From Chitinophagaceae bacterium (GTDB lineage: Bacteria; Bacteroidota; Bacteroidia; Chitinophagales; UBA10324), in NCBI GenBank assembly GCA_016704325.1, contig JADJAG010000005.1:135860-199859 (forward strand): a stretch of DNA of 64,000 bases. Reading direction: 5' to 3'. The position numbers and the translations under genes are program-made. Positions 2,108 to 11,087 of the stretch are shown here, piece by piece (the first letter of the stretch is position 1; each line of letters starts with the position of its first letter). The notes under the pieces are model-generated. The model was given only the letters and a program-made list of their open reading frames with translations, made no database searches and had not been told where the DNA came from.

Positions 2108-2737
2108 ATGACTTCCCTCGATAAGGTAAGTGGTCTTCTTCTTTCACTGGCTAATTATCAGCAATTTGACGGTGAGTTCTTTCGTTTAAGACTCGATGAG
2201 AATCATATATTTTTAAAGGAAAATCAAATTAAGTTTGATGAATGTCACTTTTATTTCAGTACACTGAAAAACCTCAATTGGATAGCGATAACTAGCTTGC
2301 AAACAACAAATGCAGGTACGTATGCTGCCGAGTTTTCATTAACCTTTGAAGGAATTAAACAAGCACTATTGCTTCAGTCAGAAGGAATCACTTCAAACAA
2401 TTGCTTTGTGGCTATGTCTTTTCGAAATGAAACAAAGGCGATTAGACAGGCTATCAAAAACGCAATTTTTAGCACAGGCTTCAATGCAATACTTATTGAT
2501 GAATTGCATCACGATAGTGTTCAGCCGATTAATGATGCAATTATTACAGCTTTGAAAAAATCCCGATTTTGCTTTGCAGACTTTAACAATCAAGCAAGCG
2601 GCGTTTACTACGAGAGCGGCTTTGTAGCGGGTCAGAGTAAAAAGGTAATTTATTGTTGTCAGCAAGATCATTTTCAAAATTCACATTTTGATACAAATAA
2701 CTGTAGTCCAAATAAATTTATTTATGGCTATTCCTGA
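2108..2737 (+). CDS. Two-domain protein: an unknown N-terminal domain of about 95 aa plus a C-terminal nucleoside 2-deoxyribosyltransferase-like / TIR-like Rossmannoid domain.
   Basis: CFVAMSF...ILIDEL...INDAIITALKKSRFCFADFNNQASGVYYESGFVAGQSKKVIY...HFDT matches the FVxMxF ... D..(N)..VyYE.G.A...gK.vI pattern of the NDT/TIR-like clade, and the Glu of YYESG is retained. The gene is AT-rich: my hand count of two 60-nt lines gave 33-37% GC. Confidence 0.6.
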   Translation: MTSLDKVSGLLLSLANYQQFDGEFFRLRLDENHIFLKENQIKFDECHFYFSTLKNLNWIAITSLQTTNAGTYAAEFSLTFEGIKQALLLQSEGITSNNCFVAMSFRNETKAIRQAIKNAIFSTGFNAILIDELHHDSVQPINDAIITALKKSRFCFADFNNQASGVYYESGFVAGQSKKVIYCCQQDHFQNSHFDTNNCSPNKFIYGYS

Positions 2738-2792
2738 AATTGTGACGGATCATTTCTATTTTCATGATCGGTAAAATTTAAATGGATTATTT

Positions 2793-3638
2793 ATGGAGGA
2801 AACTGTAAAAAGAAAAAGCCGGGCGCATGAGGAACCGCGATTCAGGCAATACCTAGGAACGGTAATAAGTGGTTTTGTTTTGTTTGGCACAGTAGCCTTT
2901 ATTGTGATGGGTTTCTGGATCATCAATATTGTAGTAACGCACAATCCACCCGGTGAAGATCCAACTGATAAACTGATTAAAGTCCTTCAGACACTATTTA
3001 CAGCAATCCTGCCGCTTTTCGGAACCTGGATCGGAACGGTGTTGGCTTTTTATTATACAAAGGAGAACCTGCAGGCAGCCAATGAGAGCATCAGGGACCT
3101 GGTAGATAAGGTGACTTCTGCCAAGAAATTGGAATCCATAAAAGCAAAGGATGTAATGATACCGGTAGAGAAGCTGATCTATCTGGAGTTTAATTCAACC
3201 GATGACCCTGCGAAGTTCAGGCTGAAAGAAGATTTTCACGATTATGTGGTGAGAGAAAAAATTCAACGGGTAATTCTGTTGAATGAAAACAAGAATGCCC
3301 GTTATGTACTGCACAGCAGCCTTATTCAGCGATTTATTACGCTACAATATTTTAAGCGGGTAGCGAATCAACCTGCAGAGCATGGTGCAGAAAATAGCGA
3401 ACCGCTGACCGCTGCTACTTTTGCAGATATGCTGCAATCGGAAGATGAGCAGATCAAAGGTGTGATCAGGGAAGGTATTAATTTCATCAGTTTGGAAGCA
3501 ACCCTTGCCGTAGCGAAGTCGTTGATGAATAACAAATATTGCCAGGACGTCTTTATTACAAAAGGCGGACAGTCCAATGAGCCGGTCCTGGGTTGGATCA
3601 CCAATAAAACCATTGAGGATAACAGCATTGTTGATTGA
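2793..3638 (+). CDS. Membrane protein with two N-terminal TM helices followed by a CBS-domain pair.
   Basis: The hydrophobic segments are YLGTVISGFVLFGTVAFIVMGFWIINIVV and LQTLFTAILPLFGTWIGTVLAFYY. CBS1 is SIKAKDVMIPVEKLIYLE...VILLNENKNARYVLHSSLI and CBS2 is TFADML...INFISLEATLAVAKSLM...VFITKGGQSNEPVLGWITNKTI. Confidence 0.7.
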   Translation: MEETVKRKSRAHEEPRFRQYLGTVISGFVLFGTVAFIVMGFWIINIVVTHNPPGEDPTDKLIKVLQTLFTAILPLFGTWIGTVLAFYYTKENLQAANESIRDLVDKVTSAKKLESIKAKDVMIPVEKLIYLEFNSTDDPAKFRLKEDFHDYVVREKIQRVILLNENKNARYVLHSSLIQRFITLQYFKRVANQPAEHGAENSEPLTAATFADMLQSEDEQIKGVIREGINFISLEATLAVAKSLMNNKYCQDVFITKGGQSNEPVLGWITNKTIEDNSIVD

Positions 3639-3682
3639 TATTTCTCCTATAGTGCCTTCTGTTTTTTTATCAACTTTCGAAC

Positions 3683-5745
3683 ATGCATCCATTTGTAATA
3701 TATGTTACCTGGCATCCCTTGTTTGAAGATGGGAAACACTATGCAGAACGAATTTATCAAACCTTTAACAGAAATTTTGCTGATCCATTCAGCCGGAGCA
3801 TAGGCATTCCCGTCTTTTACAGATCCATCAGCAATACCGGAAGTGAAGAGGAAGTACCTGCTGCTATAGATCCCGATGGCGCTGAACACACCGCAATTGT
3901 ATTACTGGTAGATGATTGCATGGTCATTCACCGGCAACAATGGGCAGACTACCTGCAGCAACTGGTAGCTTTAGATAAGGGAAATCATCAGGTGAGAATC
4001 TATCCTGTCGCCATCTCGAAGACTGCATTCAGTGTGAGTGATGTGGTGAATGATAAGAATTTTGTAAGGGTATTTGAGAAAGAGACGACGGAACAGAAAG
4101 CGCGGTTTTTAACGGTAACCCTTGCTCACGAATTTTGCAGGCTGATACTTGGTTTTCAGAGAGCAACGGATCCTAAACAAGATTCATTACCAAGACTTAA
4201 GCTTTTTCTCAGCCATTCAAAAGCAGATGGAGTGGAGATCACCAAACTGTTGAAATACTGGATACAGGAATTCACCGGATTGGAGACCTTTTTTGATGCA
4301 ACCGATATTTCACCGGGAGAATTGTTTGCCGAAGCGATTGACAAAGGAGTGGGCAATTCAAGTTTGCTGGTGGTTCAGACCGATATCTTCAGTAGCCGTG
4401 AATGGTGCCGTGCAGAAGTGCTGGAAGCCAAGAGACACAATCGCCCGGTGGTGGTAGTGAATGCCCTTGATAAAGGAGAGTCCAGGAGTTTTCCATATAT
4501 GTGTAATGTTCCGGTTATACGTTGGAAAAATGAGAGTGCTGCTGATTTTTCATCATTGATTGAACGTATCATTTTAGCGGTGTTGCTCGAAACGCTGCGG
4601 CATGCTTACCAGGGCAAACTGATTGAACATCAGTTTAAGACGTTTCTGAAACCCGGAACAGATTACAAGTTGCTAAAGAATGCACCGGAATTACTCGACC
4701 TGGTAAATACAGAAGAAGCATCAGTCAATTTGAATCGACACTTCATTTATCCTGATCCTCCATTGGGTAATGGCGAGCTGCAGATCCTCAGGCGCTGCAT
4801 GCCGGGTGCGCAATTCAGCACACCCATTCAGCTGATTCGCGATGAAGCAAAAAAAAGTGCCTCACGGGATAAGTTTACAATTGGGCTCTCTATTTCGGAA
4901 TCTGAAAAAATGGAAGTGCGCGGATTGAGTACCGATCACCTGAAAGATGTAATGGTGGAAGCTGCACGTTACCTGTTGGCTTCAGGCTATTCTCTTGCAT
5001 ATGGTGGCGATATACATTACAGTGCGGGCTTCAATTTTGCCATGTTGCTGAAGGAGATGGTGATGACTTACCGTGCCGATTATAAAGGAGAAAACGCCAG
5101 GGTTACCAACTATGTGGCCTATCCAATCTTTCATACGATCAGCACTGCTTTGGAAGCGGAATTAATTGACGTGGTGCGCTTTATCCGTGTTCCCCGCCTG
5201 TTGACCTGGCCATAAATAAGAAGGACGACTGGCAACGGATTTTGAAAGCGGAAACGGTGCACGACCAATACCTTTTTGCCCGGTGCCTTACAGAAATGCG
5301 TTTGATTATGAATGAGTCTATTGATGCGCGAATAATCCTTGGCGGAAAGCAGACCGGGTATAAAGGTCGCTACCCCGGATTGATGGAAGAAGTATTGATA
5401 GCGATGACTTCTCATAAGCCGGTATTTATCATTGGTGCATTCGGAGGTTGTGCGGCGTCTGTTATTCAGGCTCTGCTTGGAGAGACACCGGAAACTTTAA
5501 CAAAAGAGTATCAATACAAAGTAGCACAATACAAAACGCTTGCAAACTATTATCAACAACAGGATGCTGGTGCGGTAAATGAAATCAACTACGAGAAGGT
5601 GGTTGGATTCTTCAACAGTGCAGGCATAGAAGGACTAAACAACGGATTGTCGCCTGATGAAAATAAAATGCTGTTTACCAGTGTTGATGCCGGGCTTGTG
5701 ATCTCTTTGCTTTTGAAAGGGCTGAGCAGTTGTGTAAACAAATGA
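3683..5745 (+). CDS. TIR-like / TIR / SLOG three-domain protein. As assembled it is split by a 1-nt frameshift at the C-run 5192-5195 (ORFs 3683..5215 and 5242..5745).
   Basis: Residues 1-100 are TIR-like (PFVIYVTWHP...GIPVFYRS...IVLLVDD). The central domain is a canonical TIR (KLFLSHSKADG...ETFFDATDISPGE...SSLLVVQTDIFSSREWCRAEVLEA; the WCRAE codons are 4403-4417). The C-terminal domain is SLOG-like (FTIGLSISESE...LAYGGD... in the first ORF and ARIILGGKQTGYKGRYPGLMEE...PVFIIGAFGGCAA in the second). The second frame is open from 5170, and adding one C gives ...RFIRVPPPVDLAINKKDDWQRILKAE... Confidence 0.75.
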
Positions 5746-5870
5746 CAGGCTTTTAGGTGTTCGGGAAGCAGCTTGCATAATAAATGTGCTGCCTGGCATT
5801 TTTGCCACCGCTCAACAAGCTTGTACTCCTGCTAATTTTGTATTTTCATCACAGCAATTAAAATAGATCT

Positions 5871-6921
5871 ATGCAGGAGCAGTCTTCAGGACGGACAAAC
5901 CGGGAACCAACCACTGCAAAACGCGGGCATTTTTTTGATTTTTTCTCAGGGATAGATCCTGAGATCAGGAATGAATTACCACCTGCCGATCATTTTCCAT
6001 ATATCCTTATCGGGTTCAGTAACCTTTTTGCCTCTGTATTGATAGGTATGTCGGCGTACCTGTTTTTTGAATCCATCCTGCATACGTATTATCTCGCCAT
6101 TTTTTTTGCCTGGCTCATTTTCAGCCTTGTCGTAATTGTGTTGCGGGCAATTACTACTTCCTTTCTTTCTAAAACCTACCAGTCAGTCAGGTATGTTTAC
6201 CTTATTTGCATTCCTGTTATCGCCATTGTATGCAGCCAGCCGGTTGGTATGTTTATTTCAGAAGTGAACCTTGTGCGGGAGAAACGAACCACCTTGATCA
6301 GTGATACCGTTCAGTGGACCAATGATACAGCTCAATTCAGACTAACAGCTGAAGCGTACCAGGATTCCGTTAAGTTGTTTGAAATGAGTGGCGTAAATGC
6401 AAGGATGAAAGCTGATTCGCTGTATAAAGTTATTGTGTCAAAGAAAAAGGATTCCATTGCCATTCAAAAAAGTATTCGCGCACTTCAGAACAACCTGCAG
6501 ATTGAGGAAAAAAAAGGCAAGAGCCCTGAGCAGACCAATAACAATAATTATGCAGCAGCAGTGGAAGAGACGAAGAAACTAAAACAACAACTTGATCAGC
6601 AAACAGGGGCATTGGAGTTGCTGAAAAGGGATTTGAGTAATGTGAGGATCTCCTACCAGATACTCAGCAACCCGATCAGTGAATTGCCGTATGTAAAGGA
6701 GTTGTACATCAATAAATACCAGGATTCAATTGCTTCTCAGAAGAAGCAGGCTGAAATGTTGGTATCGCGGATCAAAAGAGAATCGAGCACAGATTGCTGC
6801 GCTCGAAGGAGTAACCACCTGCACTACCTGTACCTTCAGTGAAAAGTTTGCTTATTACCGGCAACATGTATTTTCCAGTTGGCTACTTCTTTTCGTTAGC
6901 ATCACGTTTTTTTACTGTTAA
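5871..6921 (+). CDS. DUF4407-like membrane coiled-coil protein. As assembled it is broken by frameshifts at the A-run 6773-6776 and the T7 run 6907-6913, and its C-terminal limit is unresolved.
   Basis: The N-terminus FFDFFSGIDPEIRNELPPADHFPYILIGFSNLFASVLIGMSAYLF, the further TM segments, the long coiled coil, and then ...AQIAALEG...WLLLFVSITFF / LILPPYIISRSRNDLYHQLL follow the DUF4407 layout as I remember it. The third frame, open from 6900, has no stop before the ATG at 7065. Confidence 0.55.
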
Positions 6922-7064
6922 TTCTTTTCTTAATCCTTCCTCCGTATATTATTAGCAGGAGCCGGAATGACCTTTACCATCAGTTACTTGCTACGAAAGA
7001 GAACAGTGAAACCATTTCCATACGCAGAAAGGAGATAGAAGAAAAGTTTAAGATTGAAACGGAA

Positions 7065-8845
7065 ATGAAAACCGTAAAAGACCTGCTGCAAAAATTTGAC
7101 GGCGGAGGCAATGAGACCACACAGGACATCACCAACAATCTAACTTCAACCAATGATCCCAAATCGTATGAAGCTTTGGGTGATGTTCAGGTGAAGCTGG
7201 GTGACTATTTCAGAGCCGTGGAATTCTATGACCGCGCTATTTTCCTCGATCCGGAAGCTTCAGCGCCATGGAGAAAGAAAGCAGATGTTTATTCCGTTAT
7301 GGGAAGATATGCCGAAGAGCAACAGGCAAAGGCACGATATACGGAATTGTTGAGTGTGGAACGCTTTCGCAATAATCTCACACGTGCCACCAGGTTGTAT
7401 GCTGTGGAAGTAGCGAACCTGCCTTTCTATGGTTCTTTTTCCTGGCACTTGCGCGGCAGCATGAATATTATGCTGGGAAAAAACGGTTATGGAAAAAGTC
7501 ACCTCATGTCGATCATGCTGGCCTTATTGCAGGAAGAAGAGAAGTTATTGCGTGACCTGACCATGATGGACAAAGCCTCTCCAACTCCTGCTCCCTATTT
7601 TAAAATCTCTTTTCAGTCGGATCATGAGCGCGATGTGCCCTTGATGGAATCGTTGCAGCAACAGGTGGAGGAAAATCAAAATTGCGATCAGCGTTTCTTG
7701 CACGGCAGCGTGCGGCGAGGACTCCTGCTGATCAGACTGTAACAGAAATTGCACCACCTGTTACAACGGAATGGGATGGTGAATTGATCAGGCTGCAAAA
7801 GCAACTAGAACTGTTGGAAGGAATAGCTTACTTTGATAAGCTGGGTATTCAGTCTTCCTATGGTAAAATCCCTGTACTGGCAATTCCTGATTCGAGGTTC
7901 ATAAATAAATCAGCGGAGTCCACTTCCATTAGAAATGATGAACGATCTAAGAAAATACTGGAAAACGGAGCATACCAGTTTATGCTGCAGGTACCGTATG
8001 AAGATGTGATTCAGAATTTATTGAATACCATCTCTACCATCTACCTTGATGAAAGGAATTTTGAGGATGAAATATTTCAGCTCATCCGCCGTGTTTTCAA
8101 ACGCCTTACCGGAAGTGAATTTGTGTGGGATACTATTCAGCGTACAGAAGATAATTCCGGTTTTATTATCAGGGTGAAGACAGAAGGCGCAGATACTTCG
8201 CTTCCGATACAGAAAGCCTCGCAGGGCACATTATCCGTTGTCGCGATGATTGGAACGATGTATCATTATATGTCGCTTCGTTATCCTGCTGTTTCGCGCA
8301 AACAGGTGACCCGGCAACCGGCTATTATTTTTATTGATGAGATTGATGCGCACCTGCATCCGAGCTGGCAGCAAAAGATTATCGGAATTTTGCGTAATGA
8401 GTTTCCGAATGTACAATTCATTATTTCAGCGCACAGCCCGCTGGTGATAGCCGGATGCAAAGAAGAAGAAGTGTGTGTGCTGCGAAAGCGCGACAAAGGA
8501 TTTACGATGGAGATCATTGAATCTAACCTGATTGGTAAACCCATCGCCGATATCTTCAGGATGATTTTTGAAGTGGAAGAAAAGAATGAAATGTATTTGC
8601 AGCTGGCAGCGCTGATGCCCTTTAAAAATTCCATTAAATCGAAAGCGCAGGCTCTCCGTGAAAAAACGACACGCGATGAAAAGGAAGAGCAACAACTGCA
8701 GGAGTTAGAGCAGCAGATTGAGAATTTTGTTTACCTCGAACAGTTTGATACCATCCGTTCTACCTTTGAAGAACTGGAAGATTTGAAGAATGCGAATGAG
8801 ACGTTGAAGATGGAGGTGGAGCGGTTGCGGGCGAGGTTGGGGTGA
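7065..8845 (+). CDS. TPR-containing ABC-type (AAA_15/AAA_21-like) ATPase with a C-terminal coiled coil. As assembled it is split by a frameshift at the A-run 7678-7681 (ORFs 7065..7742 and 7682..8845).
   Basis: A TPR-like segment is YEALGDVQVKLGDYFRAVEFYDRAIFLDPEA. The Walker A motif GKNGYGKS is at 7475-7498. Walker B and the D-loop are AIIFIDEIDAHLHPSWQ, followed by FIISAHSPLVI. Adding one A restores ...QQQVEENQKLRSAFLARQRAA... Confidence 0.7.
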
Positions 8846-9157
8846 ATGGTTAAATTGTTGAATTGTTGAATTGTTAAATGGTTAAATGGTTAAATGGTTA
8901 AATGGTTAAATGGTTAAATGGTTAAATGGTTGAATGGTTGAATGCTTAAATTGTTAAATGGTTGCAGCGAAGCTGATGCGATGGGGAGGTTGATGAAAAT
9001 TTTAAATTTGAAAATATTGAATATTGAATATTGGATATTGGATATTGAGTGTTGAATATTCAATATTCAATATTCAACACTCAATATTCAACACTCAATA
9101 CTCAATACTAACGACTTCCGACTAATTACTTCCGACTAACTACTAACTACTAACTAC
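8845..9157. repeat. Nested low-complexity block: 15 units of the 8-mer AATGGTTA, the hairpin CAGC-GAA-GCTG, a 7-mer array ATTGAAT mirrored by ATTCAAT (a palindrome with arms of about 45 bp), then CGACTTCCGACTAA x2 and ACTAACT x3 abutting the next ATG.
   Basis: I counted the units directly. The 8-mer units run 8845-8964, the palindrome is centred near 9057/9058, and the ACTAACT run ends at 9157. The block has the same architecture as the 195-202 bp MITE at 28749 and 56538, but greatly expanded. Confidence 0.85.
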
Positions 9158-10149
9158 ATGGATACCAAAGTAGAATCTCTCGTAAAAATGTTTGGTGAAA
9201 ATGCCCTGACGGACATTGAAACCAACATTGAGCCGTTGATAAAAAAGTATTTTAATGCAGAGTGGGATGCTGTGTATCAACAGGAGTTTTTTACAAAGCA
9301 TTATGAACTGATTCGCGGTTACCGGAAGAAGCTGGATGAGCTGACGGGCAATGCGTTGAATACAAAGGAAAAGATTATTGCCGCATTGAGTTTCTGCTGG
9401 AAGGAAGCTAATTTCAATAAATCGGAGGCCACGATATTTTATTCAAAAATGGAATTATTTCACCGGCTGGTGAATGAAATGTTGAAGAACGAATGGACGC
9501 CGAAACAGCAGGAACACTTCAATACGGTTGCCGTGATATTCCGTGATTATCACAATTATTTTCTTTCCTATACCAACCATCTTTCGCAGGCCATCAACCA
9601 GGCATACAAGATTATCTATGAAGCGATTTTGAATAAGGAAGATTATTCCGGCGAAGATTTCAGCAAGCGCAACCTGCTGGCCAAAGCCTTTCACCGTTTC
9701 CTTCACCTGAAAAATATCCGCAAGGGTTTCTTCGACCTCGACTCCATCCGGCTGGCGCAGGGCATTGACGATAAAGTGACTGCCAATGCCAGCAAATCCA
9801 TAGCCTTTATTCAATTGATTTCCATGGCATCTTTTGAATACAATGAACCCAACTGGAGTTATATTGAATACCTGACGTATACAAAAGCAAGAGACGTTTT
9901 CAAACAGCAAAACGACCACCGTTCCGGTTTCTCTCCTTTACTTTTTATGTTTTCACAGAAAAGAATGCATTACCGCCTGAATCGCTGATCCCCGACGATT
10001 ATAAAGTTTGGTCTGCCTCCACGAATGAGAAGCTGCACTGCGATCTTACGGCTATCAATACCTACGAAGATTTTGTGAAGGAAATTGAAAGACTGATCAA
10101 TGCCATTATCAATTATAAATCTGAAATGGTGAATAGTATTCCGGATTGA
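9158..10149 (+). CDS. Helical N-terminal domain plus a TIR-like domain. As assembled it is frameshifted near the T-run 9950-9953, and the track ORF 9158..9988 continues in another frame to a TGA at 10147-10149.
   Basis: NYFLSYTNHL...KGFFDLDSIRLAQGIDDKVTANASKSIAFIQLISMASFEYNEPNWSYIEYL follows the TIR pattern F.SY...FfD...i..G..i...i..S...i.liS......W...E (the WSYIE codons are 9854-9868). The alternative frame reads FTEKNALPPESLIPDDYKVWSASTNEKLHCDLTAINTYEDFVKEIERLINAIINYKSEMVNSIPD*. The gene is AT-rich: my hand count of two lines gave about 33-35% GC. Confidence 0.55.
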
Positions 10150-10193: not shown

Positions 10194-10336
10194 AGTCATC
10201 GGATGACTATAATTCAATGTATTGATTGAGCAGTTTTACTTTAAGTCATCCGATGACTTTCGGCCGGTTGTAGTCATCGGATGACTTGTATTCAGTAGGT
10301 TGATTTTCCAAATTTGTTATAAGTCATCCGATAACT
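10194..10336. repeat. Four copies of the 15-bp palindrome AGTCATC[G/C]GATGACT, arranged as two tandem units of about 78 bp.
   Basis: The copies are at 10194-10208 (centre G), 10244-10258 (centre C), 10272-10286 (centre G) and 10322-10336 (degenerate, centre C). The spacings are 50, 28 and 50 bp. The inner segments are related (attcaatgtattgatt versus attcagtaggttgatt). Confidence 0.85.
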
Positions 10337-10376: not shown

Positions 10377-11087
10377 CTAAATAAACTCCTCCACAGAAAT
10401 CTTCAATACCTCAAACGCTTTTTTAGCAGCCAATTTCTCCGCGTTTTTTTTATTCGTGTCTTCGCCTTCTCCGTATTCTTCTCCATCAATTATTGCCGCA
10501 ACTTTATACAAAGCACGATGGCGGTGACGGGAGTGGTTTTTACGGCGAAAGTGAGGAGCGTCCTGATTTCTGCGCCCATTCCAGCAGCTTGCTTTTATAA
10601 TTGAATTCGCTGATCTCCAACTCCCCGATATCGAGAAATGGTTTCACAATTTTTTTGATGATAAAATTGTGCGCGCTCTTATATCCTTTGTCGAGATAGA
10701 CTGCTCCTACCAGGGCTTCCAGCGCATTGCCGGTAAGTGACTTTTTATTGATCAAGGGATCTGCTGAACTATAGGAAAGATATAAGTCAATGCCCATCTT
10801 ATGAGAAACGGTCTTCAATTGGCTCCTGCTTACCATTTTTGAGCGGATATCAGTCAGGTAGCCTTCATCTTTGTAGGGGAATTTTTAAATAGGTAATCAG
10901 CTATTACGGCACCGAGTACGGCATCGCCTAAAAATTCGAGGCGTTCATTGCTTTCGTATATTTCTTCGGCAGAAGAACTGTGGCGAAAGGCCATTTCATA
11001 CAATAACAGGTTGGAAGGCGAAATGCCGGTGAGTTCCTTTACCTGCGAGTAGAACGCTTTCTTTCCTGAAAATAATCGTCGAATCAA
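10377..11087 (-). CDS. rnc: Ribonuclease III. As assembled it has at least two frameshifts.
   Basis: The signature [20 protein letters not shown] is present. Adding one base at the T5 run 10882-10886 restores [25 protein letters not shown]. The C-terminal dsRBD (...[45 protein letters not shown]) lies in a third frame that ends at the stop 10379-10377. Confidence 0.85.

What the first reader, a model, noticed from the sequence alone, without database searches (positions are those of the whole stretch)
2108..10149. An 8 kb co-directional island of TIR / NDT-like / SLOG / 2TM-CBS / DUF4407 / ABC-ATPase genes, a candidate uncharacterised nucleotide-signalling defence locus
All the plus-strand reading frames between 2108 and 10149 sit between a minus-strand SBBP gene and the conserved minus-strand rnc-fabF-acpP block. 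Together they contain four TIR or NDT-type Rossmannoid domains, one SLOG domain, one CBS pair on a 2-TM anchor, one membrane coiled-coil protein and one ABC-type ATPase. This is the vocabulary of NAD-derived-signal immunity: in Thoeris, TIR makes the signal and SLOG senses it. None of the canonical partners is present (no SIR2, Macro, CD-NTase, cyclase or nuclease), so it does not match Thoeris I/II, CBASS or Pycsar as I know them. The two stand-alone TIR/NDT-like genes at the edges (2108-2737 and 9158-10149) are visibly AT-rich. My hand counts of single 60-nt lines gave 33-37% GC there, against 45-53% for lines from the TIR-SLOG, CBS and ATPase genes and from fabF. That suggests a mosaic of separately acquired modules. 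The locus may be one system, or two adjacent ones: the TIR/SLOG/CBS genes, and the DUF4407/ATPase genes.
Basis: partly seen in the sequence, partly recalled or inferred. Interest (0 to 1): 0.85.

Follow-up and report, generated by a model that had tools for sequence, protein, structure and literature searches.

The report
ABC-ATPase, TIR, CBS and TIR-SLOG defence operon
Four of these genes (a membrane CBS protein, a TIR-SLOG protein, a membrane-anchored ABC ATPase and a divergent TIR protein) recur together in unrelated bacteria in shuffled, fused and split forms, so they are probably one undescribed NAD-signalling anti-phage system, untested so far.

Summary

- **Sequencing errors:** the window carries homopolymer indel errors. 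With these corrected, TIR-SLOG is one 687-aa gene. DUF4407, TPR and the ABC ATPase are one 991-aa gene.
- **GC content:** only the first gene (2108-2737) is AT-rich, and a same-species contig lacks it. It is not part of the system.
- **Conserved cassette:** 2TM-CBS (2793-3638), TIR-SLOG (3683-5745), DUF4407-TPR-ABC ATPase (5871-8845) and a 330-aa helical plus TIR-like protein (9158-10149).
- **Core pair:** the ATPase and the 330-aa protein occur in every related locus found. One locus adds only 2TM-CBS. One adds a different membrane protein.
- **Key locus (L102):** one locus has all four parts in another order, with a second CBS pair fused to the ATPase and TIR-SLOG split into two genes.

PADLOC and NCBIfam name no system here. 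They give only sub-threshold PtuA and Thoeris type III ThcB4 matches.

The most likely mechanism is that the ATPase senses infection and controls the TIR partner, whose NAD-derived product activates the CBS and SLOG effectors. This is inferred, not shown.

The parts
2108..2737 (+). ORF1, 209 aa. A possible NDT/TIR-like Rossmannoid protein. It is strain-specific and not part of the conserved cassette.
   Evidence: Pfam Nuc_deoxyrib_tr E 0.015, below the cut-off. PADLOC TIR effector E 0.027. phrog_16139 (unknown function) E 6.5e-18. GC 35.2%, GC3 30.5%. Same-species contig L087 shares DNA with the window only from position 2713 onward. No homologue in any fetched locus.
2793..3638 (+). ORF2, 281 aa: two N-terminal transmembrane helices plus a C-terminal CBS pair (2TM-CBS).
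   Evidence: TM segments at residues 19-51 and 67-86. The family has 1248 representatives. 12 of 36 hit Pfam CBS, and the profile hits the IMPDH/AMPK-gamma CBS regions. Homologues sit directly upstream of the ATPase in L098 (38% identity) and L102 (47%). The CBS part is fused to the ATPase C-terminus in P0152/L102.
3683..5745 (+). TIR-SLOG gene, 687 aa after correcting a one-base C-run deletion near 5192. It has an N-terminal Rossmannoid domain (aa 1-160), a TIR domain (about aa 170-300, catalytic-type Glu245), a helical linker and a SLOG LD_cluster2 domain (about aa 397-687).
   Evidence: Pfam hits. P0001 is 100% identical at 687 aa. The indel is shown. Invariant residues F175/S177/H178, W241/C242/E245, G441/G442, P565/G566/E569/E570. 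AF2 pLDDT 86.8. Foldseek TIR matches. PDB profile hits to bacterial TIR NADases.
5871..8845 (+). A single gene of about 991 aa (three indels corrected). It has four TM helices with a long coiled coil (DUF4407, aa about 36-365), TPR (aa about 425-500), a PtuA-like ABC ATPase (aa about 505-900: Walker A GKNGYGKSH, Walker B IDEIDAHLHP) and a C-terminal coiled coil.
   Evidence: Read-through in L002, which is 99.8% identical. Full-length homologues of 991, 993, 994 and 1008 aa and of 891, 914 and 999 aa. Pfam. PADLOC PtuA E 2.6e-37. NCBIfam PtuA 101 bits against a cut-off of 500. PDB PtuA/retron ATPases E 1e-13 to 1e-18. TM segments.
8845..9157 (.). AT-rich intergenic block of short tandem repeats between the ATPase gene and ORF8.
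   Evidence: Tandem Repeats Finder: AATGGTTA x14.9, AATATTC x13.6, and a 14-mer x3.6. 29.2% GC. The repeat units differ in L087. Other lineages have only 3-65 bp here.
9158..10149 (+). ORF8, 330 aa after correcting a T-run deletion near 9943. It has an N-terminal helical domain (aa 1-135) and a divergent TIR-like domain (aa about 130-260) with invariant YFxSYT, FFD and NWxxxE motifs. It is the constant partner of the ATPase.
   Evidence: Indel shown. Family alignments. hhalign against the TIR of the TIR-SLOG family: probability 82.6%, E 9.7e-6, with controls at 0.1-0.2%. Pfam TIR E 1.1e-3 (P0131) and 9.4e-3 (L098 protein). AF2 is confident only for aa 1-135. It lies directly downstream of the ATPase in every locus.
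10194..10336 (.). Four copies of the 15-bp palindrome AGTCATC(C/G)GATGACT downstream of the cassette. Whether it belongs to the system is unknown.
   Evidence: 4 local matches, one with a mismatch, against 0.07 expected. Conserved in L087.

Best explanation
Window 2793-10149 encodes one four-gene, defence-type system.

**Core.** The core is a membrane-anchored ABC ATPase of the PtuA type (DUF4407-TPR-ABC) and, directly after it, a 330-aa protein with a helical domain and a divergent TIR domain that keeps the catalytic-type glutamate.

**Accessory genes.** Two nucleotide-sensor genes accompany the core. One is a 2TM protein with a CBS pair. The other is a TIR-SLOG protein.

**Proposed mechanism.** Every step below is inferred by analogy, none is shown.
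- The ATPase, through its TPR or membrane part, senses infection and releases or activates its TIR partner, as PtuA and AriA do with their partners.
- The TIR partner converts NAD+ into an ADP-ribose-derived signal.
- The CBS pair of the 2TM protein and the SLOG domain of TIR-SLOG bind that signal.
- They then trigger membrane damage and TIR-mediated NAD+ depletion, which aborts the infection.

ORF1 (2108-2737) is a separate, recently acquired gene. The frame breaks are sequencing errors.
For: **Linkage across lineages**
- The order CBS | TIR-SLOG | ATPase | ORF8 is kept at 72% TIR-SLOG identity (L083).
- At 58% identity the order is TIR-SLOG | ATPase | ORF8 (L085).
- An unrelated contig, L102, has CBS | ATPase-CBS | ORF8-like | N+TIR | SLOG, with gaps of 10, 23, 36 and -1 bp. 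Identities to the window proteins are 47%, 44%, 28%, 37% and 31%.
- L098-L101 have CBS | ATPase | ORF8-like, with a gap of 22 bp between the CBS and ATPase genes and 9 bp between the ATPase and ORF8-like genes.
- L092 has another TM protein | ATPase | ORF8-like.

**Fusion and fission**
- The ORF2-type CBS pair is fused to the ATPase in P0152.
- TIR-SLOG is split into two genes in L102.

**Rarity**
- Relatives of TIR-SLOG were found in only 438 stretches of a collection with one genome for each of 185,579 species.
- The ORF8 family gave 6 clusters in 5.8 billion proteins.
- Repeated adjacency by chance is therefore very unlikely.

**Enzymatic competence**
- The TIR Glu245 and the SLOG GG / PGxxEE motifs are invariant in 68 sequences.
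- ORF8 Glu237 is invariant in 8 sequences.
- The ATPase has Walker A and B motifs.

**Defence character**
- PtuA-type ATPase.
- Cassette proteins are 58-73% identical where fabF is 94-95% identical.
- The core pair is missing in relatives L001 and L003.
- A putAbiC gene lies beside the L098 operon.
Against: - No experiment exists. Neither the signal, nor NADase activity, nor a phage phenotype has been shown.
- Each accessory gene also occurs alone. TIR-SLOG stands without the ATPase in 80 of 80 GTDB loci and in L001/L003. 2TM-CBS stands alone on plasmids.
- Only about four independent lineages of the core pair were found, so the co-occurrence statistics are thin.
- The TIR assignment of ORF8 rests on profile comparison. 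The AF2 model of that domain failed (pLDDT below 50).
- CBS pairs often sense ATP/AMP, so the CBS part could be a regulator rather than a signal receptor.
Confidence: 0.55

Rival explanations
1. Two or three independent defence modules sit side by side in a chromosomal hotspot. They would be an autonomous single-gene TIR-SLOG NADase, an autonomous 2TM-CBS gene, and a Septu/PARIS-like two-gene system (ABC ATPase plus TIR-like effector). They would share no signal.
For: - TIR-SLOG occurs without the other genes in L001/L003 and in all 80 GTDB loci, often with quite different partners (ThsB_TIR, Nmad2, MazG, HMUDK).
- The ATPase + ORF8 pair occurs without TIR-SLOG in L092 and L098.
- 2TM-CBS is stand-alone on plasmids, for example as Tn3 cargo.
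- Window, L083, L085 and L087 are related genomes with the cassette at the same locus. That part of the synteny could be inheritance alone.
Against: - L102 repeats all four components in another order at 28-47% identity, as a tight operon. It has a CBS-ATPase fusion and a split TIR-SLOG.
- L098 repeats CBS + ATPase + ORF8.
- Given how rare TIR-SLOG and the core pair are, independent adjacency in separate lineages is improbable.
Confidence: 0.25
2. This is not an immune system. It would be a membrane-associated nucleotide or energy-state signalling module. CBS would sense adenylates, a LOG-like SLOG enzyme would process nucleotides, and the ABC ATPase would act as a membrane-stress sensor in housekeeping physiology.
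For: - CBS pairs commonly bind AMP/ATP, which is established knowledge of the family.
- The SLOG domain keeps a LOG-like PGxxEE motif.
- The 2TM-CBS family is large (1248 representatives). Neither its members nor the window protein match any PADLOC model.
Against: - The cassette is present or absent between close relatives and diverges far faster than fabF.
- The nearest named relatives of the ATPase are all anti-phage ATPases.
- The TIR domains have conserved catalytic-type residues.
- The cassette is very rare and patchily distributed.
Confidence: 0.1
3. The island is a decaying set of pseudogenes, because most of its genes are frameshifted in the window.
For: At least six frame breaks lie within 8 kb of the window.
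Against: - Every break is a one-base length change in a homopolymer relative to independent assemblies that are 91-99.8% identical and read through.
- Conserved rnc is broken in the same way.
- Intact full-length copies exist in several samples.
Confidence: 0.03

Closest known systems
Thoeris type I (ThsB TIR + ThsA SIR2-SLOG)
   Same: TIR proteins are combined with a SLOG sensor domain. The SLOG here gives weak STALD/ThsA matches (Pfam STALD E 3.6e-4, PADLOC ThsA E 1.9e-3). A likely NAD-derived signalling logic is shared.
   Different: There is no SIR2. The SLOG is of the LD_cluster2 family and is fused to a TIR with an extra N-terminal Rossmannoid domain. An ABC ATPase and a CBS protein are added. 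No ThsB_TIR (PF08937) protein is in the window.
Thoeris type III (P. aeruginosa L0872: four TIR proteins + a non-STALD SLOG effector; van den Berg 2024, as cited in 10.64898/2025.12.03.692087 and PMC13276650)
   Same: Several TIR-domain proteins occur together with a SLOG domain that is not of the STALD type.
   Different: The NCBIfam ThcB4 model scores only 27-39 bits against a cut-off of 220, and only over the TIR core. No other type III model is hit. Published type III TIR sequences are only marginally similar. ATPase and CBS components are not mentioned in the brief descriptions of type III that I could read.
Septu / retron Ec78 PtuA-PtuB, and PARIS AriA-AriB (ABC ATPase + effector pairs)
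   Same: A PtuA-type ABC ATPase (AAA_15/AAA_21) is followed immediately by a partner gene. The best PADLOC, NCBIfam and PDB matches of the ATPase are PtuA proteins.
   Different: The partner is a helical + TIR-like protein, not an HNH or Toprim nuclease. The ATPase carries an N-terminal 4-TM/coiled-coil DUF4407 module and TPR repeats. It scores far below the PtuA equivalog cut-off (101 against 500 bits).
Membrane effectors of CBASS, Pycsar and Thoeris type II/VII (TM helices + nucleotide-binding domain)
   Same: 2TM-CBS has the same layout: a short TM anchor plus a small-molecule-binding cytoplasmic domain.
   Different: The sensor is a CBS pair. CBS does not occur in the text or held supplements of the Thoeris survey. 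No PADLOC model matches.

Membership tests
Thoeris type I | ThsA effector with SIR2 + STALD-type SLOG | tested here: not met
   No SIR2 domain in any product. The SLOG is LD_cluster2; STALD scores only E 3.6e-4, below its cut-off.
Thoeris type I | ThsB protein with a TIR-like domain (PF08937 or TIR) | tested here: inconclusive
   No PF08937 hit in the window. ORF8 is TIR-like only by profile-profile comparison.
Thoeris type II | TM + Macro effector | tested here: not met
   No Macro domain in any product.
Thoeris type III | Proteins reaching the NCBIfam Thoeris_type3 equivalog models | tested here: not met
   ThcB4 scores 27.4 bits (window TIR-SLOG) and 39 bits (L102 TIR half) against a cut-off of 220. 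No other type III model has E <= 1 for the window proteins, or E <= 0.1 for the L102, L098 and L092 proteins.
Septu (PtuA + PtuB) | PtuA ABC ATPase | tested here: inconclusive
   PADLOC PtuA models score up to E 2.6e-37 over the C-terminal half. The NCBIfam PtuA equivalog scores 101 bits against a cut-off of 500. The protein is related but not an equivalog.
Septu (PtuA + PtuB) | PtuB HNH nuclease next to PtuA | tested here: not met
   The downstream gene (ORF8) has no HNH or PtuB hit in Pfam, PADLOC or NCBIfam.
CBASS / Pycsar | CD-NTase or pyrimidine cyclase | tested here: not met
   No such domain in any product.
SLOG LD_cluster2 (PF18163) TIR-SLOG family | Pfam PF18163 above the gathering score, with TIR upstream in the same protein | tested here: met
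   LD_cluster2 scores 96 and 171 bits against a cut-off of 25.3. TIR_2 scores 37.2 against 28. There are 292 relatives with the same architecture.
DUF4407 (PF14362) | Pfam PF14362 above the gathering score | tested here: met
   36.7 bits against a cut-off of 31.3 on residues 36-305 of the window fragment. Precomputed PF14362 on P0121 and P0122.
CBS-pair proteins (PF00571) | Two CBS motifs detectable by profile | tested here: inconclusive
   The window protein has no Pfam hit. 12 of 36 family members hit PF00571, best E 2.7e-8. The family profile hits the CBS regions of IMPDH and AMPK-gamma at E 0.005-0.01.

The most novel reading that the evidence does not exclude
This would be a Thoeris-like immune pathway with two new features.
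- The signal-producing TIR enzyme is held and switched by a membrane-anchored ABC ATPase.
- Its NAD-derived product is read by a CBS pair, as well as by a TIR-SLOG NADase. I found no mention of a CBS receptor in the Thoeris survey or the defence-model libraries I searched.
Probability: 0.25. Interest if true: 0.8.

Novelty: new variant of a known kind. Interest (0 to 1): 0.65.

Why it matters
If the four genes work together, this would be a four-part TIR system not found in any resource I could search. It would give TIR signalling a new upstream controller, an ABC ATPase of the Septu/PARIS type anchored in the membrane. It would also add a new candidate receptor, the CBS pair.

It would give the widespread but uncharacterised TIR-SLOG (LD_cluster2) family its first testable context. 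That family has relatives in hundreds of species.

The natural variants are a ready-made dissection series for experiments. They comprise the core pair alone with CBS, the core pair with another TM protein, the core pair with TIR-SLOG, and the fused and split forms.

Tried and rejected
1. **Pseudogene island.** Rejected. All frame breaks are homopolymer indels relative to independent assemblies.
2. **Direct co-conservation test.** I ran tblastn and HMM searches with the window's neighbouring genes against 80 GTDB loci holding TIR-SLOG homologues. None was found. This, together with L001 and L092, first suggested two unrelated adjacent systems. I revised that view after finding L098 and L102.
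3. **Thoeris type III membership.** NCBIfam scores are far below the cut-off.
4. **Structure of ORF8.** With 6 sequences, the TIR-like half had pLDDT below 50, so the Foldseek output is meaningless.
5. **Further searches for ORF8 relatives.** The metagenome scan only re-found L092. The viral scan found nothing. Plasmids gave nothing.
6. **ORF1.** No hit in the phage records.
7. **The 'ATPase' Thoeris class** in the supplement of 10.64898/2025.12.03.692087. Its TIRs are canonical and only marginally similar to ORF8.
8. **Papers not held.** Burroughs 2015 (definition of SLOG families) and van den Berg 2024 (Thoeris type III) are not in the library. Comparison with them is second-hand.
9. **N-terminal domain of TIR-SLOG as a second TIR.** The profile match is only weak (hhalign E 0.036). 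The AF2 secondary structure is Rossmannoid. I left it as 'TIR-like, unproven'.
Full report
**What is in the sequence**

The + strand between 2108 and 10149 carries a run of ORFs. A minus-strand gene with SBBP repeats lies upstream. A broken rnc, then fabF and acpP, lie downstream.

Several ORFs end abruptly and resume in another frame. A Logan contig (L002) is 99.8% identical to window 3321-7246. It differs by four one-base length changes, all in homopolymer runs. Contig L087, from the same species (fabF 99.8% identical), shows the same kind of difference in the last gene and in rnc. The frameshifts are therefore sequencing errors in the window.

After correction there are five genes:
- ORF1 (2108-2737, 209 aa)
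- ORF2 (2793-3638, 281 aa)
- TIR-SLOG (3683-5745, 687 aa; identical to database protein P0001)
- one long gene at 5871-8845 (about 991 aa)
- ORF8 (9158-10149, 330 aa)

It reads through in L002. It exists as single proteins of 991-1008 aa in four database clusters, and of 891, 914 and 999 aa in distant relatives.

**Domain checks**

*TIR-SLOG.*
- Pfam TIR_2 has E 4.8e-9. LD_cluster2 has E 3.6e-27 and 4e-50 on the two fragments.
- A 68-sequence alignment has invariant FxSH and WCxxE in the TIR, and GG and PGxxEE in the SLOG.
- The AF2 model is confident (pLDDT 86.8, pTM 0.87). Its best PDB matches are NAD-cleaving TIR domains: SPARTA TIR-APAZ, SARM1, AbTir and SpbK.
- A sequence profile also hits bacterial TIR NADases.
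- Residues 1-160 form a further beta-alpha-beta domain. It matches TIR only weakly (hhalign E 0.036).

*The long gene.*
- DUF4407 is above Pfam's cut-off. TPR_2, AAA_15 and AAA_21 are also found.
- It has four predicted TM helices around a roughly 200-aa coiled coil.
- Walker A and B motifs are present.
- Its nearest named and solved relatives are PtuA ATPases of Septu and retron systems. It scores far below NCBI's PtuA equivalog cut-off.

*ORF2.*
- It has two TM helices.
- The window protein gives no Pfam hit.
- Its family has 1248 representatives. 12 of 36 sampled members hit Pfam CBS, and the family profile hits the CBS regions of IMPDH and AMPK-gamma.

*ORF8.*
- No library recognises the window protein.
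- With distant relatives added, the invariant residues form the pattern YFxSYT ... FFD ... NWxxxE.
- hhalign matches the C-terminal half to the TIR domain of the TIR-SLOG family. Probability is 82.6% and E is 9.7e-6. The invariant Glu237 aligns with the TIR catalytic Glu. Three unrelated control profiles score 0.1-0.2%.
- Two distant members hit Pfam TIR at E 1e-3 and 9e-3.
- The AF2 model is good only for the N-terminal helical domain.
- I call ORF8 'helical domain plus probable divergent TIR'.

*ORF1.* The NDT-like match is below threshold. The only solid hit is a phage family of unknown function.

**Composition**

ORF1 is 35.2% GC (GC3 30.5%). The other four genes are 41-45% GC and the window mean is 41.9%. 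ORF8 is 41.1%.

DNA similarity between the window and same-species contig L087 starts only at position 2713. ORF1 is therefore a strain-specific insertion and not part of the cassette.

**Do the genes belong together?**

The TIR-SLOG family is widespread. It gave 292 database hits and 438 stretches in a collection with one genome per species.

In 80 of those loci, none has a relative of ORF1, ORF2, the ATPase or ORF8. Many carry other partners instead: ThsB-type TIRs, Nmad2, MazG, HMUDK or a thymidylate-synthase-like gene. About 16 carry an unannotated TM protein that I call c3.

Close relatives of the window show these arrangements:
- ORF2 | TIR-SLOG | ATPase | ORF8 at 72% TIR-SLOG identity (L083)
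- TIR-SLOG | ATPase | ORF8 at 58% identity (L085)
- TIR-SLOG alone at 59-60% identity (L001 and L003)

All of these lie in the same chromosomal region. Their fabF genes are 94-95% identical, while the cassette proteins are only 58-73% identical.

This fits a fast-evolving or exchanged accessory block. By itself it could also be mere inheritance.

The decisive loci are the distant ones.

| Locus | Gene order | Identity to the window proteins |
|---|---|---|
| L092/L093 | c3-type TM protein, ATPase, ORF8-like | 38%, 32% (ATPase, ORF8) |
| L098-L101 | 2TM-CBS, ATPase, ORF8-like; gaps 22 and 9 bp; putAbiC gene nearby | 38%, 38%, 28% |
| L102 | 2TM-CBS, ATPase with a second CBS pair fused to its C-terminus, ORF8-like, N-domain+TIR, SLOG; gaps 10, 23, 36 and -1 bp | 47%, 44%, 28%, 37%, 31% |

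All four window components thus recur in an unrelated contig in a different order, with one fusion (CBS to ATPase) and one fission (TIR | SLOG). Both the core pair and TIR-SLOG are rare. Chance adjacency in separate lineages is very unlikely.

The constant core is the ATPase plus the ORF8-type protein. The slot beside it holds one or more proteins with a small-molecule-sensor domain: 2TM-CBS, TIR-SLOG or c3.

**How it most likely works**

*Shown:*
- the domain content
- the conserved catalytic-type residues
- the operon-like linkage
- the PtuA-type nature of the ATPase

*Inferred by analogy with Septu/retron PtuAB, PARIS and Thoeris:*
- The membrane-anchored ATPase senses infection and controls its TIR partner.
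- The TIR partner makes an NAD-derived nucleotide.
- CBS and SLOG domains bind it. CBS pairs bind adenosyl ligands. SLOG binds cyclic ADPR isomers in ThsA (10.64898/2025.12.03.692087).
- The 2TM protein and the TIR of TIR-SLOG then damage the membrane and deplete NAD+.

*Alternative wirings cannot be excluded:*
- TIR-SLOG could be the signal maker.
- CBS could be an ATP/AMP regulator of the ATPase.

**Comparison with known systems**
- No PADLOC model other than PtuA-type ATPases and generic TIR models is hit.
- The NCBIfam Thoeris type III ThcB4 model scores 27-39 bits against a cut-off of 220, and no other type III model is hit.
- Types I and II fail for lack of SIR2 and Macro.
- Septu fails for lack of an HNH partner.
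- The recent Thoeris survey lists 29 putative effector classes. Its text and held supplements do not contain 'CBS' or 'DUF4407'. Its 'ATPase' class has canonical TIRs unlike ORF8.
- The held literature has nothing on LD_cluster2, and nothing on DUF4407 in defence.
- Two key papers were not available.

**Verdict**

The finding is real and mostly correctly read, with corrected gene boundaries and a different module structure. It is a new variant of a known kind. It is built from the TIR/SLOG signalling vocabulary and the ABC-ATPase-plus-partner vocabulary, combined in an arrangement that I could not find described. Function is untested.

Noticed in passing
window 10194-10336: Four copies of the 15-bp palindrome AGTCATC(C/G)GATGACT lie within 145 bp, one with a mismatch, between the end of ORF8 and the end of rnc. 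0.07 matches were expected by chance. They are conserved in L087. They could be operator sites or terminator/REP-like elements.
   Followed up: partly
window 8845-9157: An AT-rich (29% GC) intergenic block is made of 7-, 8- and 14-bp tandem repeats between the ATPase gene and ORF8. The repeat units differ in same-species contig L087. Other lineages have only 3-65 bp here. It may be a hypervariable or regulatory spacer.
   Followed up: partly
loci L033, L037, L042, L043, L053, L054, L058, L061, L062, L064, L065 and others (about 10-16 kb in each): In many genomes the TIR-SLOG homologue heads a different conserved cassette: ThsB_TIR + Nmad2 + MazG/MazG_C + ThsB_TIR + HMUDK_hel, sometimes with a thymidylate-synthase-like gene. 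Some lie beside type I R-M genes. This links TIR-SLOG to predicted nucleotide-modification enzymes.
   Followed up: partly
L092:653-1321; L004, L005, L006, L008, L016, L018, L022 and others next to TIR-SLOG: A membrane protein family ('c3') of about 170-250 aa has no Pfam, PADLOC or NCBIfam match. It sits directly beside TIR-SLOG in about 16 of 80 loci. It also sits directly upstream of the ATPase + ORF8-like pair in L092 (HMM E 5e-45). It is a candidate alternative effector.
   Followed up: partly
window 10377-11087 (rnc) and throughout: The window has frequent one-base homopolymer indels, about one per 1-1.5 kb in the region studied. They break even rnc. Any ORF-based reading of this window needs frame correction.
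   Followed up: yes
L013, L025, L026, L082, L102: The TIR-SLOG protein also exists as two adjacent genes: N-domain+TIR of about 390 aa, and SLOG of about 320 aa. This is natural evidence that the two halves are separable modules.
   Followed up: partly
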